This document shows positions 17,679 through 28,149 of a stretch of DNA of 64,000 bases, in pieces. The stretch is from the NCBI GenBank assembly GCA_016208765.1, contig JACQXK010000032.1, positions 118,385 through 182,384 of the forward strand, in the 5' to 3' direction. The position numbers and the translations under genes were made by a program. The notes beneath the pieces are model-generated. The model searched no databases and was not told the origin of the DNA. It worked only from the letters and a program-made list of their open reading frames with translations. Position 1 is the stretch's first letter; every line of letters starts with the position of its first letter. This DNA is from Candidatus Omnitrophota bacterium (GTDB lineage Bacteria; Omnitrophota; Gorgyraeia; Gygaellales; Profunditerraquicolaceae).

Positions 17679-18119
17679 TTAAATTTGATAAACAAAATTT
17701 CCCTGAGATTTTCTGGATTTCTTTACTAAATCTTCAAAGGTAACTTCTTCAAGAATCTTCTCAGTAGCATTTGTTATTTTCTGCCAGATATCGCGAAAAA
17801 CACATTTATCAATGTCGCGGCACCTGCGGTATTTCTTATCAACGCAGGCAATCGGCTCAACCGGCCCTGCAACAAAACGCACAACCTCTAATAACCCAAT
17901 TTTAGAAGGATGCTTGGCCAATAGATACCCTCCGACTTTACCACGCCTGCTCTCTACAAAACCTCCGCGTTTTAAATCAAGAAGTATCTGCTCCAAAAAC
18001 TTGATGGGTATGTCAGAACGTTTAGCCAGCTCATGAATAGTTACCGGCTCCTCTCCATAATGTATGGCAAGGTTCAAAATTGTCTTTAAAGAATAATCGC
18101 TTTTATAAGTTATTCTCAT
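17679..18119 (-). CDS. Rrf2-family transcriptional regulator (IscR/CymR-like), likely Fe-S liganding
   Basis: N-terminal wHTH typical of Rrf2 (YSLKTILNLA...) with three clustered Cys (CVDKKYRRCRDIDKC). It is the first gene of the cysK / NifU / DUF39 operon. Confidence 0.75.
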   Translation of the reverse strand: MRITYKSDYSLKTILNLAIHYGEEPVTIHELAKRSDIPIKFLEQILLDLKRGGFVESRRGKVGGYLLAKHPSKIGLLEVVRFVAGPVEPIACVDKKYRRCRDIDKCVFRDIWQKITNATEKILEEVTFEDLVKKSRKSQGNFVYQI

Positions 18120-18131
18120 CGTCCTTCTCTA

Positions 18132-18148
18132 TAATGTCTATTACATTA
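18132..18148. promoter_or_regulatory. 17-bp perfect palindrome (TAATGT-CTATT-ACATTA), candidate Rrf2 operator
   Basis: Seen directly in the sequence, 13-29 nt upstream of the Rrf2 ATG and just downstream of the predicted -10. Confidence 0.35.
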
Positions 18149-18152
18149 GTAG

Positions 18153-18180
18153 AGTTTACACGATAATTCAGCTTTGTCAA
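18153..18180 (-). promoter_or_regulatory. candidate sigma70 promoter of the Rrf2-cysK operon
   Basis: Minus strand TTGACA (18180..18175) - N16 - TAAACT (18158..18153). Confidence 0.35.
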
Positions 18181-18252
18181 GTATTTTGTTAGGATTTTCA
18201 AAATGCTGCACAATTGATTTTATGTATTATACTGACAGCACAAGATAATTTA

Positions 18253-18433
18253 GCAATAAAAGTTTCTCTTCGCACACGAGATAATTTGGCGTCTTCTGCG
18301 GTTTATGACTCGCTTTCGTAACGGCTTACGCAAAAAACTCTATACTCTCGCTCGTCATAAATCCTTGAAGACTATAAATAATAACGCGTTGCCAAAAAAT
18401 CTCTGATTGTGTGCTAACAGAAACTTTTATTGC
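18253..18433. repeat. about 181-bp MITE-like element with about 40-bp imperfect terminal inverted repeats (copy A)
   Basis: The left end GCAATAAAAGTTTCTCTTCGCACACGAGAT pairs with the rev-comp of the right end (GCAATAAAAGTTTCTGTTAGCACACAATCAGAGAT). The internal part has its own 8+ bp inverted repeat (TTTATGAC...GTCATAAA). The rev-comp of the whole element aligns at about 85% identity with 27076..27254. Confidence 0.7.
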
Positions 18434-18459
18434 TTTGTGCTTTGGATTTTATTTTGCGG

Positions 18460-18614
18460 GTGACAAGGCATGTTTCGAGCAGCATGTTAGAAAGCTCTTG
18501 CGGGCATGGTTCGCCTGCTATCACATAGTTGGCGAGAGCAAGAGCTTTCTACCGAGCGAAGATTTTCCACGCTGGGGAAAATCAAGCGGTGCTGCGAGAA
18601 ATATGCCTTGGCAC
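18460..18614. other. GC-rich 155-bp structured element (24-bp inverted-repeat arms enclosing two hairpins); candidate ncRNA or second MITE-like element
   Basis: GTGACAAGGCATGTTTCGAGCAGC (18460..18483) pairs with GCTGCGAGAAATATGCCTTGGCAC (18591..18614). Inside are an 11-bp perfect hairpin (AAAGCTCTTGC...GCAAGAGCTTT, 18491..18548) and an 8-bp hairpin (GATTTTCC...GGAAAATC). GC content is much higher than the flanks. Confidence 0.5.
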
Positions 18615-18656
18615 CTGAATACTTAAAATACAAGACTTGGCTAAATTTATAATTTT

Positions 18657-18947
18657 CTACGCGATTATTTTTAAAACTTCTTTGATAGGCTGGCCCTTAA
18701 AGATCCCCATCTTGCGGGCAGAAGAAGTGCAGGAATGAACACCTGTATTAATGGTTTGTTTAATTGAAGACACGCCTGTAACCTTTATAGCAACATCTTT
18801 AAATTTATCGGCGACTTTTAAATTTAAATATCCGCACATAACATAACCTTTGCTTCCTCTCAATAAAATCAAATTTTTACTAGCAAGCTTTATTAGATAC
18901 GCTTCAATATGTTTATTACCAATTTTTATCTTCTTTTGCTTTATCAC
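18657..18947 (-). CDS. DUF1805 (YunC-like) domain protein
   Basis: 96 aa. A central LILLRGSKGYVMCGYLN block resembles the conserved GYIMCG core of the YunC/DUF1805 family. Confidence 0.5.
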   Translation of the reverse strand: MIKQKKIKIGNKHIEAYLIKLASKNLILLRGSKGYVMCGYLNLKVADKFKDVAIKVTGVSSIKQTINTGVHSCTSSARKMGIFKGQPIKEVLKIIA

Positions 18948-19333
18948 AACGCCCCCTTCTTCTCCAATTTCTTAATCTTATTCCAATTCCTGATAATTTC
19001 GTGGCTGGATTTAACTTTAACCTTGCCAAACACATGCGGGTGACGGCGTTTCAGCTTCTTAATTAATCCATCAATTACATCTTCAATATCAAATTTATTT
19101 TCCTTAGAGGCAATTTGCGCATGAAACATAACCTGCAACAAAATATCCCCCAATTCCTCCTTCATGTGGTTAAGATTTCCACCATTTACAGCAGAGATAA
19201 ATTCTCCACTCTCCTCTTTAAGATACTTCAACAGGCTTTTATGCGTCTGCTTTTTATCCCAGAGGCAACCAACTGGCCCATGCAGAATTTGGAAAATTTC
19301 TCTTAGTTGAATAAATTTTGTTGTTTTAGACAT
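18944..19333 (-). CDS. MazG-type nucleotide pyrophosphohydrolase domain protein
   Basis: 129 aa with EExxE..ELGDxL metal-binding helices (EESGEF...EELGDILLQV) and a RRHPHVF motif. Confidence 0.7.
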   Translation of the reverse strand: MSKTTKFIQLREIFQILHGPVGCLWDKKQTHKSLLKYLKEESGEFISAVNGGNLNHMKEELGDILLQVMFHAQIASKENKFDIEDVIDGLIKKLKRRHPHVFGKVKVKSSHEIIRNWNKIKKLEKKGAL

Positions 19334-19355
19334 ACGTGGATGATTGGAAAGAAAA

Positions 19356-20318
19356 TCAAGCCTTAAAATCTTTAATTATTTCTCCGAGCATTTCTTCAAG
19401 CCCCACTTTAGGAATATAGCCTGTATATTTCTTTATCTTAGACAAATCAGGGATCCTGCGCTGCATATCCTCAAAGCCATCCCCATAGGCATCCTTATAA
19501 GAAATATAATGAATTACAGATTTACTATTGGTAAGTTTCTTGATTTTGTGCGCGAGTTCCTCAACGCTGATCTCTTCATCGTTGCCAATATTAAAAACCT
19601 CGCCAAAACATTTAGAAGTTTCTAATAATTTAATTATCCCATTTACAATATCCCCGACATAGGAAAAGCACCTTCTCTGTTTTCCATCGCCGTAGATTGT
19701 AATCGGCTGGTTTAAAATAGCCTGTTTAATAAAACGCGGCACCACCATCCCGTATTCTCCGGTTTGACGCGGGCCGCAGGTGTTAAAAAATCTCGTAATT
19801 ACAACCGGGATTTTATGCTCTTTAAAATACGCAAATGCCAAAAACTCATCAAGTTTTTTTGTGCAGGCATAGCTCCAGCGGTAAAGCTTGGTGTAGCCGA
19901 TTATGCTATCATCCTCTTCTTTAAAGGGGACCTTATTATTTTTTCCGTAAACCTCAGAAGTTGAAGCAATCAAAACCGGCGTATTAGACCTGCTTGCCTC
20001 TTCAAGAATAATTTCTGTGCCGCGCACATTTGTAGTGATGGATTTTAAAGGATTATCAATAATATATTTAACTCCCACAGCAGCAGCCAAATGATAAACG
20101 CAATCAACATCTTTAATCAGGCGCGACATCAGTTTTTCATTCATGATACTTTCAAGATGAAACTTAAAATGCTCATGATGCTTAAGATGCGCGATATTAT
20201 CAAGCTTTCCGGTGGACAGGTCATCCACAGCTACTACGCTGTTATTTTGCGAAAGCAGCTTATCTGCAAGATGCGACCCAATAAAACCCGCTCCTCCGGT
20301 AATCAATACTTTCTTCAC
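19356..20318 (-). CDS. NAD-dependent sugar-nucleotide epimerase/dehydratase, UDP-glucuronate decarboxylase (UXS/ArnA-C)-like
   Basis: N-terminal ITGGAGFIGSHL Rossmann motif, a YxxxK catalytic pair (SYACTKK) and a GDGKQRRCFSYVGD block resembling the UXS/ArnA decarboxylase subfamily. 320 aa. Confidence 0.7.
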   Translation of the reverse strand: MKKVLITGGAGFIGSHLADKLLSQNNSVVAVDDLSTGKLDNIAHLKHHEHFKFHLESIMNEKLMSRLIKDVDCVYHLAAAVGVKYIIDNPLKSITTNVRGTEIILEEASRSNTPVLIASTSEVYGKNNKVPFKEEDDSIIGYTKLYRWSYACTKKLDEFLAFAYFKEHKIPVVITRFFNTCGPRQTGEYGMVVPRFIKQAILNQPITIYGDGKQRRCFSYVGDIVNGIIKLLETSKCFGEVFNIGNDEEISVEELAHKIKKLTNSKSVIHYISYKDAYGDGFEDMQRRIPDLSKIKKYTGYIPKVGLEEMLGEIIKDFKA

Positions 20319-20320
20319 TT

Positions 20321-21358
20321 TTATTTCCTTTGTTTTGCCATATGATGCTGGCGCATTTTTACTTGATGTAATTTCCAGATACCCCAGATAAAAAATAAAA
20401 TAAAACCGGATGATACCAATATAGCGCTCTTTATTCCGTCTTTAGGTATTGAAATTGCGATACAAACCAGGACAAAATTAATAATATAAATAAACATCAC
20501 TGTTTCCCTCTGGCTCAGGCCCATGTGTGTAAGTCTATGCGATAAATGATCTGTATCCGCGTGTTCAAGCCACTGCCTGAACGTGCGTACCTTTCCTTCA
20601 GCTATCCTTAAAACAGTGATCATGGATGTATCAAAAATCATCACCCCGAGCATTAAGACAGGGATTGTTACGGCGATTAACTTACTTTCCGACCAAGAAG
20701 CCATTATTGCCATAGATGAAATAACAAATCCAAGAAACGTACTTCCGGAATCTCCCATAAATACTTTAGCAGGATTAAAATTATAGCGTAAAAATCCCAA
20801 AGTACTACCTAATAAACTAATGCTCAGAAAAACCAGCCACCTCTGGCCGGTTTTATAAGCAATTGCAGCTATACCGAAACAACAGATTGCCGCAATTCCC
20901 CCGGCAAGACCGTCCATATTGTCTAAGAAATTCAAAGCATTAGTAATACCGACGATACCGGCAACAGTAAAGAATACATTAGCAGCATCCCAAGGAAAAA
21001 CTTTAATTACTACGCCATGCGCTACCACCACAATACATGCCACCAACTGAAAAAAAAGCCTTAACGACGCGCGTAAATGCCGCATATCATCAATCACGCC
21101 AATAAACATAATAATGCTTGCGCCTATCAATATCCCGCGCAGCTGAGTATTATAATCAAAACTGGAAAGCGTTCCGATGACAAACGCCATATACATTGCC
21201 ATGCCTCCTAATTTAGGCATTGGCTGTTTATGAATTTTGCGGCTCTTAGGATGGTCCAAAATATCAAATTTAAAAGCAAGCCTCATACATAAAGGCACCA
21301 GAAACAATGAAGCGATTAAGGAAATAATTGCTACTCTTATATATTGGCTGACAATCAT
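20321..21358 (-). CDS. polyprenyl-phosphate HexNAc-1-phosphate transferase (WecA/MraY family), initiating transferase
   Basis: About 10 TM segments and an ITNALNFLDNMDGLAGG motif (NxxNxxDGxDGL of the MraY/WecA family). 345 aa. Confidence 0.8.
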   Translation of the reverse strand: MIVSQYIRVAIISLIASLFLVPLCMRLAFKFDILDHPKSRKIHKQPMPKLGGMAMYMAFVIGTLSSFDYNTQLRGILIGASIIMFIGVIDDMRHLRASLRLFFQLVACIVVVAHGVVIKVFPWDAANVFFTVAGIVGITNALNFLDNMDGLAGGIAAICCFGIAAIAYKTGQRWLVFLSISLLGSTLGFLRYNFNPAKVFMGDSGSTFLGFVISSMAIMASWSESKLIAVTIPVLMLGVMIFDTSMITVLRIAEGKVRTFRQWLEHADTDHLSHRLTHMGLSQRETVMFIYIINFVLVCIAISIPKDGIKSAILVSSGFILFFIWGIWKLHQVKMRQHHMAKQRK

Positions 21359-21361
21359 CGG

Positions 21362-22411
21362 TTAATCTACTATCGCCTTAAGCGTTTTAGTAATAATATG
21401 CCTGGCCTTTTGGCTACTTAACTCTGGATATATGGGCAAAGAAATGGTGTTTTTAAAAACTTCATTGGTAGAAGGGAAATCACTGCTTTTAAATCTTAGA
21501 TATTGATGCAAGGGCCTAAAAACCGGCTTCTTTGCTTCAATGCCTGACTTTTGCAATTTTTCAACTAAAACATCAGCGCTATTCTTGCTTCTTATAACAT
21601 AACGAAAATAAACATGCTCTTTATTCTGGACAGGTAAAGGTAAAATCAACCCAGAATCAGCGAAAGATTTATTATACATCTTGGCAATCCTTTGTCTACG
21701 GGAAATAAACTCAGGGATTTTCTTTAACTGCTCTAAGCCCATTGCCGCAGCCAGATCATTCATTTTGTAATTAAAACGCAGGTGATAATCAGGCTTATTA
21801 TCATAATCTTTTAAATCTCTGACAAAATCAGAAACCTTTTTGTCGTTGGTAAGGATCATCCCGCCTTCTGCAGTCGTAAGCATTTTTGTAGCATAGAAAG
21901 AAAATACAGAGATCACGCCAAAACTTCCTATATTTTGCCCCTTATAAGTTGCTCCCACTGCCATGGCACAATCCTCAATAACCGGTACGCCAAGCTTTAG
22001 CAATTCTCTTAAATCTGCAGCCAGTCCGAACATATGCGGCACGATTATCGCCTTAGTTTTATTAGTAAGCGCTTCTTTTACTGCAAAACGGCAAATATTA
22101 AAAGACTCCGGGTCAATATCCACAATCTTTACTGTTGCACCGGTATAATTAACGGCATTTAAAACCGCAGTACAAACATAACTGGGGATGATTACTTCAT
22201 CTCCTTTTCTTATTTTTAATGCCAATAAAGCAAGGTGCAAACCTGATGTGCCTGAATTAACCGCTGTTGCAAAACGCATACCGATAAAATCAGCTAACCC
22301 CTGTTCAAACTTACCAGTTAACTTACCCTCGGCAATAAAACCGCTTTTTAAAACAGAATTCAGGAATTTTATTTCCCTAAAATTAATGGATGGTTTTGAG
22401 TGTGGGATCAT
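21362..22411 (-). CDS. DegT/DnrJ/EryC1/StrS-family PLP-dependent sugar aminotransferase (ArnB-like)
   Basis: 349 aa with typical N-terminal blocks (VNSGTSGLHLAL..., ...DIDPE...) and a Lys-containing SFYATK region. Confidence 0.8.
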   Translation of the reverse strand: MIPHSKPSINFREIKFLNSVLKSGFIAEGKLTGKFEQGLADFIGMRFATAVNSGTSGLHLALLALKIRKGDEVIIPSYVCTAVLNAVNYTGATVKIVDIDPESFNICRFAVKEALTNKTKAIIVPHMFGLAADLRELLKLGVPVIEDCAMAVGATYKGQNIGSFGVISVFSFYATKMLTTAEGGMILTNDKKVSDFVRDLKDYDNKPDYHLRFNYKMNDLAAAMGLEQLKKIPEFISRRQRIAKMYNKSFADSGLILPLPVQNKEHVYFRYVIRSKNSADVLVEKLQKSGIEAKKPVFRPLHQYLRFKSSDFPSTNEVFKNTISLPIYPELSSQKARHIITKTLKAIVD

Positions 22412-23093
22412 TCTTTAAAATAATTTCTAAGGATTTCGGCCCATAATTAAACAATAAATCAGCAATTGCCAAATCCGGAACAAAACCCGCTTTCATATAT
22501 TGCTGTTTGTATTCAGGGCAATGCCAATCTTGCAAAGAAACTTTTATACCTGCATCATTAAATACTTTTTCATCAAGATAAACTTCCAAAGCATACGCAC
22601 CGGACAGATATGTATCAGCGCCTAATTCTTTGCAAATATTCACCAAACGAAGCGATTCTATTCCGGGAACGCTTAATTCAGAAGACTTGACTATCTTTTG
22701 CTTAAGGCCCAGGCATTCAAGATAGAAAAAAAACATTTCATAATTAATATCATTTAAATTCTCCCAGTCTTTTTGATAAATATTCTCAAAAAAACTCTTA
22801 TATTCCTTAAAATAGGGAGCCTTGCTGTAATTAAAGCACAAAGAATTCCAGTGCTTTTTGCGCCAATTTTGTGAATTATCAATTTTAACTTCGTTAATAT
22901 TCTGCTGAAACTTATTATAAACCGGGACAGTTAAATATGACCAACCCTGGGCAGTTTTAATTTTATTGCGATTCTGCCAGCCGTTTTTATTAAACTGAAT
23001 ATCATCCATGACTACAAATATATCTGAATGATAAATTTTATGAAAATAACGCAACCAGGGAAAGTAATGCAGCTGGTGAGCAGAAAGAATCAT
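22383..23093 (-). CDS. WbqC-like family protein
   Basis: 236 aa. The N-terminal MILSAHQLHYFPWLRYFHKI matches the conserved (Q/H)P.YFPW..YF start of the WbqC family (PF08889) found in O-antigen clusters. Confidence 0.55.
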   Translation of the reverse strand: MILSAHQLHYFPWLRYFHKIYHSDIFVVMDDIQFNKNGWQNRNKIKTAQGWSYLTVPVYNKFQQNINEVKIDNSQNWRKKHWNSLCFNYSKAPYFKEYKSFFENIYQKDWENLNDINYEMFFFYLECLGLKQKIVKSSELSVPGIESLRLVNICKELGADTYLSGAYALEVYLDEKVFNDAGIKVSLQDWHCPEYKQQYMKAGFVPDLAIADLLFNYGPKSLEIILKNDPTLKTIH

Positions 23094-23096
23094 TTC

Positions 23097-23816
23097 TTAA
23101 ACTACAAACCTGTGGCACATAAATGCCTCTGCAGCCTCTACTGAAATTTCACGGCCGCGCACCTTGGCAAGGTTCTCAATATTCTCAAGGCTGGCATGAT
23201 GAATTGAAGGCTTCATCTGTGACTTATGAAATGACACAGCTTTTAATTTTTTATCAAGATATTTAGAAATATCCACATAAAAAGTAGGATGAAATTTCTC
23301 ACGCTCAAGGCTCCAGGAGATTGCCGGATTATCACAGGATAAAACAATTTTCTGAAATGGCTTAACATCCGGTAAATGCGGCCTGCAAGCGGTAAAGCCG
23401 GCACGAAATACAGCTTCATGATCCTGGTTATATGAGGCTGCCGGTAAAATCATCATTGTCGGCTTAATCCGGTCAATAGACAGCTTGCATTCTCTTTCAA
23501 AACAATTTACCAGGTCCTTGCGCGGGATGGCATCTAAACGTAAATGCACTTTTGTATCATTAAAAACAACTTCATAGTCATCAACTTTTAAATATTTCAT
23601 TGCCCCTTCAAATTCTTCATTACGGGTATTTCCATTAACAACCATATCATTGCTTTTTGGCCCGTAATGCACAACCTCTCCCACAGAAACTACAATCACA
23701 TAAACTTCAGCCCCAAGGTCTTTCATCTTGGCAATTGTCCCGCCGCAACCAAAGACCTCGTCATCAGCATGCGGAGCCAAAACCAAACATTTTTGTTTCT
23801 TTAAGAATGCATCCAT
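23097..23816 (-). CDS. PIG-L/LmbE-family N-deacetylase
   Basis: LVLAPHADDEVFGCGGT (HxDDE...GCGG zinc-site signature) and an HxDH region (NQDHEAV). 239 aa. GGAGGA RBS 5 nt upstream. Confidence 0.8.
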   Translation of the reverse strand: MDAFLKKQKCLVLAPHADDEVFGCGGTIAKMKDLGAEVYVIVVSVGEVVHYGPKSNDMVVNGNTRNEEFEGAMKYLKVDDYEVVFNDTKVHLRLDAIPRKDLVNCFERECKLSIDRIKPTMMILPAASYNQDHEAVFRAGFTACRPHLPDVKPFQKIVLSCDNPAISWSLEREKFHPTFYVDISKYLDKKLKAVSFHKSQMKPSIHHASLENIENLAKVRGREISVEAAEAFMCHRFVV

Positions 23817-23850
23817 ATTATTAATCCTCCACTGTAATTAATTGTCGGCT

Positions 23851-23932
23851 GACGTCATTGCGAGCCCGAAGGGCGAAGCAATCTCTGTTTTAGGATTGCT
23901 TCGTCGCGCTTCGCGCTCCTCGCAATGACGAT
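23851..23932. repeat. 82-bp composite palindromic (REP-like) element overlapping the 3' end of the 668-aa CDS
   Basis: GTCATTGCGAG-(X)-GAAGCAATC / loop TCTGTTTTAG / GATTGCTTC-(X')-CTCGCAATGAC. The X and X' bulges each form a small GC hairpin with GAA/TTC loops (GCCC-gaa-GGGC and GCGC-ttc-GCGC). The stop codon of the upstream gene (23892..23890) lies in the central loop. Confidence 0.6.
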
Positions 23933-25896
23933 TTCTTAATTTTCAATAATTCACAATACAAATTATCTATTCTATTCACCATTTCTTTAGCGCTGAAATT
24001 CTCATTCATTATTTTCCTGGCGTTTTCTCCGAATAACTTTGCCTTATCTGGATAAGACAGTAACTGAATAATTCCCTTTGCTAATTCACTACTACTTGCA
24101 GGTTCAACTAAGACACCACTCTCGCCATCTTTCACTAATTCCGGAATACCGCTTACCTTTGTGGCAACGCTTGGCTTTCCCATAACCCCTGCTTCAACAA
24201 GCACCCTGCCCATACCTTCGTTAAGGGAACAAAGCACAAAAATGTCCATTATTGAAATCATGCGCGCCACATCCTGCCTGATACCGGAAAAAATTACTTT
24301 TTGCGATATTCCCAGCTCTTCAACCCTGTTTTGCAGAAATTTACGCTGACTGCCGTCGCCAACCAAGAGAAAATGTGAATTTGGAAATTTCTCCAAGACT
24401 TGCGGCATGGCCTCTACAAAGAAACTTATTCCTTTAATCGGCTCAATTCTGGCAACTGTACCAATAACTTTTCTATCTAAAGGAATCCCTAATTCACCCT
24501 TCGTCTTTTTATTATCAAAAGAACCATTAAAATCCTCTACCTTGACCCCGCTTGGGATAGTGATAAATTTATCCGCTGTGGCAATCTTAAGTTTTAGATG
24601 TTCATTCTTGCAATTATCCGTCAGGGTAATTATCTTATCACAAAAACAGGAGAAAATCATCTCTAAAAACCTGTATAGCATGCTTTCAAAACGGCCAAAA
24701 TAACTATGAAAAACATGCCCATGCGGCGTGTGCACCACTACCTGCACTCCTGCAAGCTTAGCCGCAAGCCTACCCACAATCCCAGCCTTTGAGGTATGAG
24801 TATGCACAATATCAAAACGATATCTTTTGATTAGAAAATATAATTTAACCAAACTAATCAAATCTTTTACAGGATTAACTTGGCGAACTAACTCTGGAAT
24901 TACCGCTAAATCAATATTTTGCCTACGCACAACTGATTCAATCTCGCCTTCTGGCCCTGATGTTGGGCCGCTTGCCAACATCACCTGATAACCTTTTTCT
25001 CTTAAACCCAAAACTGTTAAAAGAGTATTCTCCTGCGCACCGCCCTTGATTAAACGAGTAATAATATGCAGCACCCTTATTGGACGATTACTATCTTTGA
25101 GTCTTTCCTTAATCATCTTGGACAATAACTTTCTCTGTATCTTAGTTGGCCAGCTAAATTTAGTAGCCAGGCCTAAATCTTGCTTAACCGGCATTGCCCG
25201 GTTATTTTCAATCTGAGTAACTACTTCCACCACCATCTTGCTGCCCAAGGCTAAACCCCGCAGATAAAGCGTTTTTTCATTATCAAAAGGCCAAATTGTA
25301 ATTTTCTTTTGAATCAGGATATCTCCCCTATCTAACTCTTCATTTACAAAATGCACAGTTACGCCGGTTTCATTTTCTTTATTAAATAATGCCCAAAAGT
25401 TAGAATCTAATCCTGCATATTTAGGTAAAAGCGATCCGTGCAGGTTAAGGCAACCGGATTTTGGGATTTGGAAAATATTTTTCTTAATTAAACGCGTATT
25501 GGTGAGAACAACTAAATCCGGATTAAACTTGCGAATTATATTCTCGCTATCCACGCCATTATGATCCTTAACCAAGAAAAATGGAATTTTATAATCTAAT
25601 ACCAGCTCCTCTATTGAAAGATAATGTTTGCTGCGAAAAATATTGCTTCCAAATATTTTTCGTAAAATATAATGCAATTTAATATTAATAAATTCAAGTA
25701 GCCTGTCCTTTGTAAACGAAAAACCATGTTTCTTAAAAGAATCCGACAGTAAAGAAAGGTTGCTGCCATTCTTCTTTAATAACTGTCCCCGCTCCTCGGC
25801 AACAATAGCCACTAAATTTTTCCCAGCATCAAGCAAGCATTTAGCAATTAATGCGCCTGACGGCCTACCAGTCCTGGTTAAAAATACTATTCTCAT
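23890..25896 (-). CDS. bifunctional formyltransferase-domain / GT4 glycosyltransferase fusion protein
   Basis: The N-terminal roughly 250 aa has a formyl-transferase fold (Fmt/ArnA-N/PurN type) with SGCLNLHGSLLPKYAG (HxSLLPxxxG catalytic motif). The C-terminal roughly 380 aa is a GT-B/GT4 domain (GMGRVLVEAGVMGKPSVATKVSGIPELV, EX7E region). The last 11 codons are encoded by the palindromic element. Confidence 0.75.
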   Translation of the reverse strand: MRIVFLTRTGRPSGALIAKCLLDAGKNLVAIVAEERGQLLKKNGSNLSLLSDSFKKHGFSFTKDRLLEFINIKLHYILRKIFGSNIFRSKHYLSIEELVLDYKIPFFLVKDHNGVDSENIIRKFNPDLVVLTNTRLIKKNIFQIPKSGCLNLHGSLLPKYAGLDSNFWALFNKENETGVTVHFVNEELDRGDILIQKKITIWPFDNEKTLYLRGLALGSKMVVEVVTQIENNRAMPVKQDLGLATKFSWPTKIQRKLLSKMIKERLKDSNRPIRVLHIITRLIKGGAQENTLLTVLGLREKGYQVMLASGPTSGPEGEIESVVRRQNIDLAVIPELVRQVNPVKDLISLVKLYFLIKRYRFDIVHTHTSKAGIVGRLAAKLAGVQVVVHTPHGHVFHSYFGRFESMLYRFLEMIFSCFCDKIITLTDNCKNEHLKLKIATADKFITIPSGVKVEDFNGSFDNKKTKGELGIPLDRKVIGTVARIEPIKGISFFVEAMPQVLEKFPNSHFLLVGDGSQRKFLQNRVEELGISQKVIFSGIRQDVARMISIMDIFVLCSLNEGMGRVLVEAGVMGKPSVATKVSGIPELVKDGESGVLVEPASSSELAKGIIQLLSYPDKAKLFGENARKIMNENFSAKEMVNRIDNLYCELLKIKKSSLRGARSATKQS

Positions 25897-27062
25897 CTAA
25901 CTCTTTCGTCATTGCGAACCTTATTTAGCTTTTCTCTAAATATCTCAACCGCCCTCTGCCAATTCAATTCTTCAACTACCCTTTTTCTTCCGTTCTCGCC
26001 TAATCTCTTAGCAAGCTCTCTATCCAAAAGCAGTTTTAAAATTGCTTGGGTAACATCGTCTTTGCTAAAAGGGTCCACCAATAAACCGGTTTTACCATCT
26101 TCTATCGCTTCATTTACTCCTCCGGATTTACCACCGACAACCGGCTTTTCACAGGCATTTGCCTCCAAATAAACAATTCCAAAACCCTCAATATCTCCTC
26201 TCTCTTCTAGAGTGCGGCTGGGCATAACAAAAATATCACAAAGATTATAGAATTTAAGCAACTCTTCATCCGGCACTCTTCCGGCAAAACGAAGATATCT
26301 TTCTACGCCCAACACATTAGTAAGGTTCTCTAAATTCTGACGAAACGATCCTCCACCAACCAAAACATAGACAACATCAGGATGAGCTTTAATTATTTCA
26401 GGCATAGAGCGAATAACCATATCAAAACCTTTTCTTTCCACCAGTCTGCCCACAGAAAGAATTACTTTTTTACCTAAAAGATTATACTTAGACCTAAAAT
26501 CATCTGTTACTTTTAAAGGATAATATTTTTGATGGTCGGTTCCCGGTTTAATTAAGATGATCTTTTCTTTAATAACGCCGAATTTTATCAGGCGCTCTTT
26601 TACAAACTCTGTGATTGCTGCCACAAACAGAGCATTATTGTAGATTTTTAAATATAATTTGTGCATAAACTTATTTCTCTCAAATTTACCAAATTCATAT
26701 CCATAAGCCCACATAGCATACTTAAAACCTAATATTTTAGAAAATAAATACGCGATAACTCCGCCATAAGCAATATTCATTGGGATTACAATCTTAATCC
26801 GGTATCTTAAAATTACCCACGGCATTACAAAAAGAATAGGGATAAGCCTCAAATAACCTAATTCATACCAGGGAGTGCGAATTACTTTAAATTTCTGCAA
26901 GCTATCATACTCCTTAGCACCTTTTGCCTGGGGGCCGATAACAATAATTTGCTCTCCGGCACCAGACAAGCGCGAAGCTAATTCATGCGCCACTGTGCTA
27001 ACGCCATCAGTGTGCGGGGGAAAATCTACCGAAACAATAAGAATCTTGGTTTTTATTTGCAT
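25893..27062 (-). CDS. GT4-family glycosyltransferase
   Basis: C-terminal EGFGIVYLEANACEKPVVGGKSGGVNEAIEDGKTGLLVDP (EX7E GT4 motif). 389 aa. Confidence 0.8.
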   Translation of the reverse strand: MQIKTKILIVSVDFPPHTDGVSTVAHELASRLSGAGEQIIVIGPQAKGAKEYDSLQKFKVIRTPWYELGYLRLIPILFVMPWVILRYRIKIVIPMNIAYGGVIAYLFSKILGFKYAMWAYGYEFGKFERNKFMHKLYLKIYNNALFVAAITEFVKERLIKFGVIKEKIILIKPGTDHQKYYPLKVTDDFRSKYNLLGKKVILSVGRLVERKGFDMVIRSMPEIIKAHPDVVYVLVGGGSFRQNLENLTNVLGVERYLRFAGRVPDEELLKFYNLCDIFVMPSRTLEERGDIEGFGIVYLEANACEKPVVGGKSGGVNEAIEDGKTGLLVDPFSKDDVTQAILKLLLDRELAKRLGENGRKRVVEELNWQRAVEIFREKLNKVRNDERVR

Positions 27063-27075
27063 AATATACTATTTG

Positions 27076-27254
27076 GCAATAAAGGTTTCTGTGAGCGCAC
27101 AATTAGAGATTTTTTGGCATAGCATTCTTATTTACAGTCTTCAAGGCTTTATGACGAGCGAGAGTACACCTAAATGCGTAAGCCGTTACGAAAGCGAGTC
27201 ATAAACCGCAGAAGACGGCAAAAAATCTCGTGCGCGAACAGAAACTTTTGTTGC
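27076..27254. repeat. about 179-bp MITE-like element (copy B), in the opposite orientation to the copy at 18253..18433
   Basis: Matches the rev-comp of 18253..18433 block by block, including the shared core AAAGCGAGTCATAAACCGCAGAAGACG (27 of 27) and TIR-specific substitutions. It lies in the 214-bp intergenic region upstream of the GT4 gene at 25893..27062. Confidence 0.7.
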
Positions 27255-27276
27255 TGAATAATGATCCAGCAACAAA

Positions 27277-28149
27277 TTATACTTTCATCAACCTATTAAA
27301 AACCCGTAATATTTTGTTTAAAAAAATACAGTTCTTGATTTCTAACAAATCTAGCTCCCCATTAAGTTTGGCCAGAAATGTAAACATATTATCCGAAGAC
27401 TCTATCCCTATGCGCCTTAACTCAAACAAATCAGTGCTAACATCATTTACCCCGTTCATCGCAGTAAACCCAAAAATATAACCTGCCTCCTCGGCAACCT
27501 TTTTTACATCCTGGTTAAAATCAATCACTAAACCAAACGGATACGAAATCATATCAATCTTACTTCCAAGCTCTTTTTCTATAATTTCCTTTGAATCTGT
27601 AATTTCCTTCTTAAAATCTGTGACTTTACCCAAATTAGCATGATTAATTGTATGCGACCCAAAATCAATCCCATACCTTGACATTTCTCTTACTTGATCC
27701 CAGGCAAGGAAATGATTATAAATAGGATTATCGTTAATATCATGCGGCAATATTTTCTCTGTACCGATGTATCCTGCGGTTAAAAATATTGTTGCCGGGA
27801 CTCCTAAATTTCTTAAGATAGGATACGCATTAGTGTAGTTATCCGAGTAGCCGTCATCAAAAGTAACTGCCACTGCCTTTTTAGGCAAGCATCTTTTTTG
27901 TTTTAACAAACCACAGGCATCTTTTAATGAAAGTAAAGAATAATTCTTTGCCAAAAACTGCATTTGTTTCCTGAATTTATTTATCTTTACATTTACCTCG
28001 TGCTTTCTAAAATCGCCTACACTGTGATACCTTATAATTACCAGCTTATTCTTTCTACGGCCAAGCCAGAGAGGTAAAAAAATACAATAACCAATAACAG
28101 CAAGAAAGATCAAGATTAACTTTTTAATAAAAATCTTTAAAGCAATCAT
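27277..28149 (-). CDS. polysaccharide deacetylase (NodB homology; ArnD-like deformylase/deacetylase candidate)
   Basis: N-terminal TM helix, then a VAVTFDDGYSDNY...H motif set (the TFDDG NodB signature). 290 aa. Confidence 0.8.
   Translation of the reverse strand: MIALKIFIKKLILIFLAVIGYCIFLPLWLGRRKNKLVIIRYHSVGDFRKHEVNVKINKFRKQMQFLAKNYSLLSLKDACGLLKQKRCLPKKAVAVTFDDGYSDNYTNAYPILRNLGVPATIFLTAGYIGTEKILPHDINDNPIYNHFLAWDQVREMSRYGIDFGSHTINHANLGKVTDFKKEITDSKEIIEKELGSKIDMISYPFGLVIDFNQDVKKVAEEAGYIFGFTAMNGVNDVSTDLFELRRIGIESSDNMFTFLAKLNGELDLLEIKNCIFLNKILRVFNRLMKV

What the first reader, a model, noticed from the sequence alone, without database searches (positions are those of the whole stretch)
18253..18433. 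Short TIR element (about 180 bp, about 40-bp imperfect terminal inverted repeats) present twice in opposite orientation
18253..18433 and 27076..27254 are the same element at about 85% identity when one copy is reverse-complemented. The termini carry copy-specific substitutions that co-vary with orientation. That argues for two insertions of a MITE-like element rather than a single invertible promoter switch. Both copies sit in the only sizeable intergenic gaps of a gene-dense region, directly upstream of minus-strand operons (Rrf2-cysK, and the GT4 / formyltransferase-GT4 glycan genes). The interior can fold: a TTTATGAC...GTCATAAA stem plus the perfectly conserved AAAGCGAGTCATAAACCGCAGAAGACG core. 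No transposase is in the window, so the elements would be non-autonomous. They could supply promoter, terminator or RNA-structure functions to the adjacent operons.
Basis: seen in the sequence. Interest (0 to 1): 0.7.

Follow-up and report, generated by a model that had tools for sequence, protein, structure and literature searches.

The report
Palindromic intergenic repeat family in Omnitrophota
The two 180-bp sequences are real copies of a small non-coding hairpin-forming repeat that is scattered between genes in a few uncultured groundwater Omnitrophota; it resembles repeat families already known in other bacteria, and how it spreads is still unknown.

Summary
Window 18253-18434 and 27075-27255 are two copies, in opposite orientation and 87% identical, of one ~181-bp non-coding element ("E").

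- **Structure:** E is more than a pair of 40-bp terminal inverted repeats. Almost its whole length is an imperfect palindrome with 57 pairs. Across five full copies 96% of pair positions are paired, and six pairs are kept through changes on both sides.
- **Distribution:** E is a dispersed family limited to two related Candidatus Omnitrophota species. It occupies at least seven distinct intergenic loci. It sits at contig ends in four assemblies and leaves single-arm remnants.
- **Insertion:** Copy B lies where more distant relatives have the deacetylase stop codon abutting the GT4 start codon, so it is an insertion.
- **Second family:** A separate hairpin repeat, "X" (18448-18620), sits beside E at several loci.
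- **What is missing:** No target-site duplication, no promoter or terminator consensus inside E, no transposase or recombinase among the 63 window ORFs, and no Rfam, plasmid, phage or E. coli match.
- **Promoter switch:** Unlikely. The interior is nearly symmetric, and orientation is constant at each intact locus across 3-4 assemblies.

Verdict: a new member of the known class of bacterial interspersed palindromic repeats (MITE-, ERIC- or REPIN-like). The mobilising enzyme and any RNA-level role remain inferred. Interest is modest.

The parts
18253..18434 (+). Element E, copy A (182 bp; L arm at 18253, R arm ending at 18434). Relative to the minus-strand genes it is read R arm first.
   Evidence: Covariance-model score 214.8 bits. 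RNA fold -72.2 kcal/mol, z = -9.6. DNA fold -37 kcal/mol, z = -6.5.
27075..27255 (-). Element E, copy B (181 bp), opposite orientation on the chromosome. Relative to the minus-strand genes it is read L arm first. It lies 21 nt after the deacetylase stop codon and 12 nt before the GT4 ATG.
   Evidence: Covariance-model score 204.2 bits. RNA fold -58.6 kcal/mol, z = -5.3.
18253..18290 (+). L-type terminal arm of copy A (AGCAATAAAAGTTTCTCTTCGCACACGAGATAATTTGG).
   Evidence: (I6). The L type has no 5-nt insertion.
18391..18434 (+). R-type terminal arm of copy A (…GCCAAAAAATCTCTGATTGTGTGCTAACAGAAACTTTTATTGCT), with the 5-nt TGATT bulge.
18290..18332 (+). 43-nt core identical in copies A and B. It contains the inner stems GTCTTC (18291-18296) and TTTATGAC (18302-18309), and the apical hairpin CGTAACGGCTTACG (18317-18330). 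Partner strands are GTCATAAA 18354-18361 and GAAGAC 18367-18372.
   Evidence: Stems 4 and 5 carry 5 of the 6 compensated pairs.
18448..18620 (-). Element X, a second and unrelated hairpin repeat (core GGTGCC…GGTCACC, 18459-18615). It lies between the DUF1805 stop codon and E copy A.
   Evidence: Fold -73.6 kcal/mol, z = -6.7. 85-92% identical copies lie next to E in L007/L037 and L034, plus a partial 57-nt match (96%) at the L004 contig end. Compensatory changes occur in its inner stem. No Rfam match.
18153..18180 (-). Sigma-70-like promoter match (TTGACA-16-TAAACT) for the Rrf2 operon. It lies outside E, between E and the gene.
   Evidence: 10 of 12 matches.
17679..18119 (-). Rrf2-family regulator gene, the first gene downstream of copy A.
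   Evidence: Pfam PF02082, E = 5.5e-37.
18657..18947 (-). DUF1805 gene, upstream of X and copy A.
   Evidence: Pfam PF08827.
25893..27062 (-). GT4 glycosyltransferase gene immediately downstream of copy B.
   Evidence: Pfam PF00534/PF13439.
27277..28149 (-). Polysaccharide deacetylase gene immediately upstream of copy B.
   Evidence: Pfam PF01522. In relatives L031-L033 its stop codon abuts the GT4 start codon.

Best explanation
E is one family of non-coding, interspersed palindromic repeats in a narrow lineage of groundwater Candidatus Omnitrophota. X is a second such family. E is a non-autonomous element that has been inserted, duplicated, recombined and partly deleted in intergenic spacers of co-directional operons.

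**Shown**
- E is multi-copy and dispersed.
- It shows presence, remnant and absence states at one orthologous junction.
- It encodes nothing.
- Its long hairpin is maintained by compensatory substitutions well beyond the terminal repeats.

**Inferred**
- The hairpin, in single-stranded DNA or in RNA, is itself the feature under selection.
- The most likely reason is that the hairpin is the substrate of an enzyme supplied in trans from elsewhere in the genome. Given the absence of target-site duplications and the apparent orientation bias, a hairpin-recognising HUH/Y1 (RAYT- or IS200-like) transposase is the leading candidate.
- Because both window copies lie inside transcribed operon spacers, each would also place a roughly 57-pair imperfect hairpin in the mRNA. 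Such a hairpin could be cut by RNase III or could block exonucleases, as reported for Correia and ERIC elements. This is a side effect that may or may not have been co-opted.
For: **Copies at different loci**
- Window sites A and B.
- L004, in a JACROS MAG.
- Between RuvB and QueH: L007, L037 and L038.
- After hcp: L014.
- After cbiO: L023.
- After DUF1805: L027.
- Single arms in L020, L023, L027 and L036.

**Assembly behaviour.** Contigs end inside E in Logan, JGI and NCBI assemblies.

**States at site B.** Full E in the window. 38-41-nt remnants in the sister species. No spacer at all in relatives with 66% protein identity and the same gene order.

**Hairpin conservation**
- 57 pairs, 96.1% paired, and 6 pairs changed on both sides. 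Slid controls give 0-1 such pairs. 0 of 500 shuffles reach the observed covariation score.
- Two subfamilies differ by coordinated changes: GTCTTC/GAAGAC versus GTGTGC/GCACAC, and TTTATGAC/GTCATAAA versus TTTACGGC/GCCGTAAA.
- G·U and A·C mismatches are balanced at 5 versus 4, so neither RNA strand is favoured.
- The hairpin is also stable as DNA.

**Conservation between species.** Non-orthologous copies reach 93% (E) and orthologous X copies 92%, against 82-87% for flanking coding DNA.

**Orientation.** All four E-alone copies lie 3-66 nt after a stop codon with the L arm first.

**Parallels with REPINs (PMC3116915).** Hairpin doublets, common compensatory changes, singlets as remnants, and clusters of two unrelated elements.
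Against: - No transposase, RAYT or recombinase lies in the 64-kb window or in about 230 kb of related loci inspected. No autonomous element with the same termini was found in metagenome or viral contig scans.
- There is no target-site duplication. This removes the classical signature of transposition, and it could also mean spread by recombination only.
- Copy number per genome could not be measured. An unselected 21-kb stretch of the sister species has no copy, so the family may comprise only tens of copies.
- Copy A is old and positionally conserved between species, so there is no evidence of current activity.
- The orientation bias rests on 4 + 2-3 loci.
- The covariation rests on five sequences in two subfamilies, so about six independent events.
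Confidence: 0.62

Rival explanations
1. E (and X) are mainly functional cis-acting RNA hairpins. They would be domesticated intergenic structures acting as RNase III or RNase E processing sites, 3'-end stabilisers or transcription barriers between cistrons, kept by selection on the RNA and no longer mobile.
For: - Strong covariation of the hairpin.
- Conservation above that of neighbouring coding DNA.
- E and X are always in transcribed spacers of co-directional genes.
- E-alone copies lie 3-66 nt after stop codons in one orientation.
- Copy A and X are kept at the orthologous site in two species.
- There is precedent: Correia elements are cut by RNase III, and ERIC elements alter mRNA decay (PMC10969869).
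Against: - The flanking genes have no common function: Rrf2/cysK, GT4, queH, hcp, cbiO.
- Both orientations relative to transcription occur.
- G·U and A·C mismatches are balanced, so no single RNA strand is favoured.
- There is no U-tract or terminator consensus.
- Site B has lost most of the element in the sister species without loss of the genes.
- No Rfam family matches.
Confidence: 0.2
2. Each E is an inverton. A site-specific recombinase would flip the segment between the terminal repeats to switch the downstream operon (glycan genes, Rrf2) on and off. Copies A and B would simply be caught in opposite states.
For: - Terminal inverted repeats flank a ~100-bp segment upstream of glycan genes, a typical inverton setting.
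- A and B are in opposite orientation relative to their downstream genes.
- At site B the remnants in L020 and in L027/L036 are of opposite arm type, as if the parent had been in either orientation.
- Correia elements have been reported to invert (PMC10969869).
- A crossover inside the outermost 16 bp is not excluded by the arm-specific substitutions.
Against: - The interior is itself almost palindromic, so flipping changes very little.
- No promoter-like hexamers lie inside E. The Rrf2 promoter match lies outside it.
- No recombinase gene lies in 64 kb (Pfam).
- Orientation is identical at site A in the window, L012, L034 and L035, and at the RuvB-QueH site in L037, L038 and L039.
- E copies also lie directly after stop codons of unrelated genes.
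Confidence: 0.05
3. The two inverted copies act as the ends of a larger unit. This would be either a composite transposon carrying the 8.6-kb glycan gene block between them, or a large segment that inverts by recombination between the copies.
For: Two ~180-bp inverted repeats at 87% identity bracket 18435-27074.
Against: - The same gene order and strand (deacetylase, GT4, formyltransferase-GT4, PIG-L, WbqC, DegT, WecA-like, epimerase) is found in relatives that lack E at site B: L027, L031-L033 and L036.
- All genes inside and outside the block are on the same strand, so the block was neither imported as a unit nor inverted here.
Confidence: 0.02

Closest known systems
REPINs (REP doublets forming hairpins) mobilised by RAYT transposases (Bertels & Rainey 2011, PMC3116915)
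   Same: - Non-coding and intergenic.
- Two inverted arms plus a spacer form one long hairpin.
- Compensatory changes keep the hairpin.
- Single arms occur as decayed remnants.
- Clusters form from two unrelated elements side by side (here E next to X).
- No target-site duplication.
- Conserved over long times.
   Different: - E is about twice as long (181 bp versus about 100 bp).
- E is A+T-rich.
- Its arms are not short G+C-rich REP palindromes with a GTAG head.
- No RAYT gene has been found, and whole genomes could not be searched.
- The copy number seems low.
ERIC/IRU elements of Enterobacteriaceae and Vibrionaceae
   Same: - Imperfect palindromes of 127 bp or more in transcribed intergenic regions.
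- Found in either orientation.
- Copy number varies widely between taxa.
- They form mRNA hairpins that can change transcript decay when placed after a gene (PMC10969869).
   Different: - No sequence similarity: E has no match in 5,426 E. coli genomes.
- Different phylum.
- ERIC is usually described as a MITE. E shows no target-site duplication.
Correia elements (CREE/NEMIS) of Neisseria
   Same: - Similar size (about 100-200 bp), with terminal inverted repeats.
- Inserted near genes and co-transcribed.
- The RNA hairpin is cut by RNase III.
- In-place inversion has been reported (PMC10969869).
   Different: - From my own knowledge, Correia elements duplicate a TA target; that was not checked in a paper here. 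They also carry promoter boxes and an IHF site (PMC10969869).
- E has no duplication and no promoter consensus.
- In E the pairing extends over nearly the whole length and covaries.
Canonical bacterial MITEs derived from IS elements
   Same: Small, non-coding, terminal inverted repeats of about 26-40 bp, dispersed copies, and insertion polymorphism.
   Different: No target-site duplication, and no cognate IS with the same termini was found. The selection signal lies in the internal stems rather than only in the termini.

Membership tests
MITE (IS-derived miniature inverted-repeat transposable element) | Small (well under 1 kb) with no coding capacity | tested here: met
   181-182 bp. The only overlapping ORFs (18411-18626, 26875-27204, 27230-27481) have no Pfam family.
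MITE (IS-derived miniature inverted-repeat transposable element) | Terminal inverted repeats | tested here: met
   26-nt arms are 92% complementary and extend imperfectly to about 40 nt. This holds in every copy.
MITE (IS-derived miniature inverted-repeat transposable element) | Target-site duplication flanking each copy | tested here: not met
   Flanks of the four complete independent copies (window A, window B, L004, L007/L037) share no direct repeat of 2 bp or more at the junctions. Caveat: the insertions are old.
MITE (IS-derived miniature inverted-repeat transposable element) | Multiple dispersed copies within a genome | tested here: met
   At least 7 distinct loci in two species. The total per genome could not be counted.
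MITE (IS-derived miniature inverted-repeat transposable element) | Presence/absence polymorphism at orthologous sites | tested here: met
   Site B has a full copy (window), 38-41-nt remnants (L020, L027, L036), and no spacer at all (L031-L033).
MITE (IS-derived miniature inverted-repeat transposable element) | A cognate autonomous IS with the same termini and a transposase | tested here: inconclusive
   None in the window (Pfam on 63 ORFs). None among 22 metagenome stretches or in viral contigs matching the terminus pattern. The host genomes themselves could not be scanned.
REPIN / RAYT system | Two inverted repeat units plus a spacer forming one hairpin, kept by compensatory changes | tested here: met
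   57 pairs, 96% paired, 6 compensated pairs. Stable as RNA and as DNA.
REPIN / RAYT system | Each unit is a short REP palindrome (about 20-35 nt, G+C-rich stem, conserved 5' tetranucleotide) | tested here: not met
   The arms are A+T-rich, about 40-80 nt, with only a weak 4-bp local stem. No GTAG-like head (read from the sequence).
REPIN / RAYT system | Single units occur as decayed remnants; clusters form with unrelated elements | tested here: met
   Single arms in L020, L023 (2214-2252), L027 and L036. E lies adjacent to X at site A, at RuvB-QueH, and in L004.
REPIN / RAYT system | A single-copy RAYT (Y1/HUH transposase, PF01797) gene flanked by the repeats in the same genome | not testable with these tools
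   There is no such gene in the window or in the fetched loci.
Inverton (invertible promoter) | Asymmetric invertible segment carrying a promoter | tested here: not met
   The interior is nearly palindromic. No sigma-70-like site lies inside E.
Inverton (invertible promoter) | Both orientations present at one locus in a population | tested here: inconclusive
   Orientation is the same in 4 assemblies at site A and 3 at RuvB-QueH. However, remnants of opposite arm type occur at site B. Reads are not available.
Inverton (invertible promoter) | Site-specific recombinase encoded nearby | tested here: not met
   None among the 63 ORFs of the window.
Known RNA family (Rfam 15) | Match to a curated covariance model | tested here: not met
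   No match at gathering score in 64 kb. The only hit is a meaningless 14.7-bit match to a plant miRNA precursor at E = 6.9.

The most novel reading that the evidence does not exclude
E and X are not decaying junk. They would be long-lived, vertically inherited hairpin elements under purifying selection in Omnitrophota. One possibility is a REPIN-like population maintained by a single domesticated hairpin-recognising (HUH/RAYT-like or unknown) enzyme in a phylum where none has been described. The other is a new class of about 180-nt structured cis-RNA placed directly after stop codons. Either would explain the covariation, the conservation above coding DNA, the fixed polarity after stop codons, and the repeated E-X pairing.
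Probability: 0.25. Interest if true: 0.55.

Novelty: new member of a known kind. Interest (0 to 1): 0.35.

Why it matters
Interspersed palindromic repeats have been studied almost only in cultured Proteobacteria, Firmicutes, Neisseria and cyanobacteria. I found no paper linking Omnitrophota to such elements.

This family is small enough to follow copy by copy. It shows clear hairpin covariation, remnants, subfamily replacement at an orthologous site, and pairing with a second family. It could therefore serve as a tractable case of how such repeats persist in streamlined, gene-dense genomes of uncultured bacteria.

In practice, the repeats break metagenome assemblies of these organisms at predictable places. 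They may also mediate rearrangements near a large, variable glycan-synthesis locus.

None of this changes current understanding of how such repeats behave.

Tried and rejected
- **Rfam:** nothing at gathering score on the whole window or at E ≤ 10 on 18080-18700. No tRNA or tmRNA.
- **Public DNA collections:** E+X against plasmids, phages and E. coli genomes in distant mode gave no match. The viral-contig scan with the terminus pattern gave none.
- **Metagenome scans:** the type-1 core 24-mer found none. With the terminus pattern, 16 of the 22 stretches were chance or coding matches. Eight of these lie in one repeated sequence, and the L016 match lies inside a 450-aa ORF.
- **Target-site duplications:** searched with several boundary choices and none found.
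- **Promoter and terminator scans:** nothing inside E.
- **Strand test:** G·U versus A·C mismatches gave no signal.
- **More copies:** covariance model and nhmmer searches of the window and about 230 kb of related loci found no further or more diverged copies.
- **Integron attC site:** considered and rejected. The termini do not fit RYYYAAC/GTTRRRY, there is no integrase, and the genes are ordinary operons. This rests on reading the sequence and on my own knowledge of attC.
- **Riboswitch or leader for Rrf2/cysK:** rejected, because X and E recur next to unrelated genes.
- **Composite transposon or large inversion:** rejected by synteny.
- **Look-ups that added little:** L040 turned out to be the same contig as L027. 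L041, an unselected 21 kb of the sister species, has no copy. The search for a filled-versus-empty pair close enough to define the exact insertion point therefore failed.

Full report
**1.
- Window 18253-18434 and 27075-27255 align over their full length when one is reverse-complemented. Identity is 86.7% over 181 nt, E = 3e-58. The similarity ends at the element boundaries.
- Each copy has terminal inverted repeats. The 26-nt arms are 92% complementary (I6), with imperfect complementarity out to about 40 nt.
- A degenerate terminus pattern hits exactly the four termini, against 0.04 matches expected by chance.
- The two arms of a copy are consistently different. The R arm has a 5-nt insertion and several substitutions. 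These differences go with the orientation of the interior in every copy found. The whole element, arms included, is therefore in opposite orientation at the two sites.
- A 43-nt core (18290-18332) is identical between the copies.

**2. Setting.**
- All 63 ORFs of the window are on the minus strand, and the GC skew is negative throughout.
- Copy A lies in the 537-nt gap between a DUF1805 gene and an Rrf2-cysK-nifU-HcyBio operon.
- Copy B fills the 214-nt gap between a polysaccharide deacetylase gene and a GT4 gene inside a long glycan-synthesis array.
- Pfam scans of all ORFs found no transposase or recombinase.
- There are no tRNA genes and no Rfam matches.

**3. Anatomy.**
- E is more than terminal repeats around an interior. 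Nearly the whole 181 bp folds into one imperfect hairpin.
- As RNA the fold is -72.2 kcal/mol (z = -9.6) for copy A and -58.6 kcal/mol (z = -5.3) for copy B. As single-stranded DNA it is -37 kcal/mol (z = -6.5).
- The asymmetries are conserved: a 5-nt bulge, an 18-20-nt bulge on the R side, and an apical hairpin CGTAACGGCTTACG next to a variable stretch.

**4. Relatives and host.**
- The core 24-mer occurs once among 185,579 species-representative genomes. That hit is in a Candidatus Omnitrophota groundwater MAG (JACROS010000056.1, locus L004).
- The window's Rrf2 protein is identical to MBI4707523.1 of another Omnitrophica MAG with a 186-kb contig.
- A terminus pattern found true family members in five contigs of one JGI metagenome, Ga0208371.
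- Protein-guided look-ups added loci from GCA_016214325.1 and GCA_020063045.1.
- These assemblies are 94-99% identical to each other and about 85% identical to the window. The family is therefore seen in two sister species, here called Sp1 (the window) and Sp2.
- Covariance-model and nhmmer searches found no copies in loci of more distant Omnitrophota, nor further copies in the window.

**5. Loci.**

| Class | Locus | Position |
|---|---|---|
| E with X | Site A (DUF1805 \| X-E \| Rrf2) | Same orientation in Sp1 and in Sp2 (L034, L012, L035) |
| E with X | RuvB \| X-E \| QueH | Three Sp2 assemblies, same orientation |
| E with X | L004 | Next to a short secreted-protein gene |
| E alone | Site B | Window only |
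| E alone | L014 | 4 nt after the hcp stop codon |
| E alone | L023 | 3 nt after the cbiO stop codon |
| E alone | L027 | 66 nt after the DUF1805 stop codon |
| Single arm | L020, L027/L036 | At site B |
| Single arm | L023 | 2214-2252 |

- Contigs from Logan, JGI and NCBI assemblies stop inside E. This is what multi-copy repeats do to assemblers.
- The Logan contigs for the Rrf2 locus begin exactly 30 nt inside the L terminus in two samples. With 31-mers, this fits another copy that has the same terminus and a different flank. That is an inference.

**6. Evidence of insertion.**
- In relatives with 66% identical GT4 and the same gene order, the deacetylase TAG is immediately followed by the GT4 ATG (L031-L033).
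- In the window the same junction holds 214 nt, almost all of it E. The GT4 gene has acquired a short N-terminal extension and has no Shine-Dalgarno-like sequence.
- In Sp2 only a 38-41-nt arm remains there.
- The junction thus shows empty, filled and remnant states. The flanks are too diverged to define the exact insertion point.

**7. The hairpin is under constraint.**
- Five full copies were scored on 57 pairs. 96.1% of pair positions form standard pairs, and six pairs changed on both sides. Partner columns slid by 1-3 positions give 0-1 such pairs. None of 500 shuffles reaches the observed covariation score.
- Five of the six compensated pairs distinguish two subfamilies and lie in the inner stems, outside the terminal repeats. 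They are GTCTTC/GAAGAC versus GTGTGC/GCACAC, and TTTATGAC/GTCATAAA versus TTTACGGC/GCCGTAAA.
- The bulges are retained, so this is not blanket homogenisation of the two arms.
- G·U and A·C mismatches are balanced at 5 versus 4. Neither RNA strand is singled out, and a DNA-level hairpin is equally possible.
- X shows the same behaviour, for example GAAAGCTCTTGC/GCAAGAGCTTTC versus GAAAACTTTTGC/GCAAAAGTTTTC.

**8. Evolutionary dynamics.**
- Between species, window copy A and L004 are 93% identical, and X is 92% identical. Flanking coding DNA is 82-87% identical.
- The orthologous E copies at site A are only 80% identical, because Sp1 carries subfamily 1 there and Sp2 carries subfamily 2. This implies replacement or conversion by another copy.
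- L004 and L034 are 113/115 identical across the R arm, an 11-nt spacer and 57 nt of X, yet differ in subfamily inside E.
- Within Sp2, the sequence after the DUF1805 stop codon differs completely between two assemblies that are 98.8% identical up to that point.
- The site-B remnants are of opposite arm type in strains 94% identical.
- Together these observations point to frequent recombination or conversion among copies. I could not resolve the individual events.

**9. What it is not.**
- *Promoter switch:* the interior is nearly symmetric, so inversion would change little. No sigma-70-like hexamer pair lies inside E. The only good promoter match (TTGACA-16-TAAACT) lies between E and Rrf2. 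No recombinase gene is nearby. Orientation is constant across assemblies at the two intact multi-assembly loci.
- *Composite transposon or invertible 8.6-kb block:* the gene order and strand are the same in relatives without E at site B.
- *Known RNA family or relative of ERIC:* no Rfam match and no E. coli match.
- *Canonical MITE:* no target-site duplication flanks any of the four complete copies, and no parent IS was found.

**10. Most likely mechanism.**
- I commit to this: E is a non-autonomous interspersed palindromic repeat whose hairpin is the selected feature. Most probably the hairpin is the substrate of an enzyme encoded elsewhere in the genome.
- Several features match what was described for REPINs and their RAYT transposases (PMC3116915). 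These are the lack of duplications, the single-arm remnants, the clusters of two unrelated hairpin elements, and the compensatory changes.
- The apparent polarity (all four E-alone copies have the L arm first, just after a stop codon) is compatible with single-strand, replication-linked insertion. That link, and the enzyme itself, are inferences.
- Because both window copies sit in transcribed operon spacers, a roughly 57-pair imperfect RNA hairpin would form in the mRNA. It could be processed or protective, as shown for Correia and ERIC elements (PMC10969869). This was not tested here.
- Confidence that E is a dispersed, once-mobile, non-coding palindromic repeat is about 0.6-0.7. Confidence in a hairpin-recognising HUH-type mobiliser is about 0.3.

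**11. Novelty and value.**
- I found no paper linking Omnitrophota to such elements, and no sequence relative exists outside two species.
- In kind, E belongs to the well-known class of bacterial intergenic palindromic repeats. It sits between MITEs and REPINs without meeting all defining features of either.
- It is a new member of a known kind. It is useful as a compact example and as an assembly-breaking feature, but not a surprise to a specialist.
- Interest is 0.35. It would rise if a dedicated enzyme or an RNA function were shown.

Noticed in passing
window 18448-18620 (core 18459-18615); also L034 1712-1879, L037 9602-9786, L004 686-742, L023 2158-2204 and 2299-2414: A second, unrelated hairpin repeat family (X, about 170 nt, three-stem fold, z = -6.7) sits next to E at several loci. 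It has its own compensatory changes and no Rfam match. X is 92% identical between the two species, more than the neighbouring genes.
   Followed up: partly
window 1-64000: All 63 ORFs are on the minus strand, with negative GC skew throughout and almost no intergenic space. This is an unusually long co-directional stretch.
   Followed up: no
window 19356-63976: About 45 kb form one continuous glycan-synthesis array. It includes GT2, GT4 and PMT_2 transferases, many SAM methyltransferases, B12-radical SAM enzymes, FemAB-like, asparagine synthase, two Wzy-like genes, MurJ, and Wzm/Wzt. The gene content differs between the two sister species; for example a radical SAM gene sits in a different place in L027.
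   Followed up: no
window 27050-27075 versus L031 9990-10010: The GT4 gene downstream of copy B has no Shine-Dalgarno-like sequence. It also has a 4-aa N-terminal extension (MQIKT-KILIVS). In relatives the deacetylase TAG abuts ATG-KILIVS. The insertion seems to have remodelled a translationally coupled junction.
   Followed up: partly
L020 900-950 versus L027 9975-10025 and L036 1795-1845: At the orthologous site B, strains 94% identical keep a single arm of opposite type (R-type versus inverted L-type) with the same left junction. The cause is unexplained: in-place inversion, conversion from another copy, or independent events.
   Followed up: partly
L027 17911-18073 versus L034 1670-2070: Two assemblies of the same species are 98.8% identical up to the DUF1805 stop codon and diverge completely just after it. 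One has X, then E read R arm to L arm, then Rrf2. The other has an unrelated 67-nt spacer, then E read L arm to R arm, then the contig end. This suggests a rearrangement at the repeats.
   Followed up: partly
window 18944-19333: A MazG-type nucleotide pyrophosphohydrolase gene lies between DUF1805 and the epimerase gene in the window. It is absent from that position in the sister species (L027, L034).
   Followed up: no
window 27247-27276 (minus strand): A terminator-like hairpin is formed by the flank TTTGTTGCT and the E terminus AGCAACAAA. A 9-nt inverted copy of the terminus lies 12 nt outside copy B. It could be a leftover of another end, or chance.
   Followed up: no
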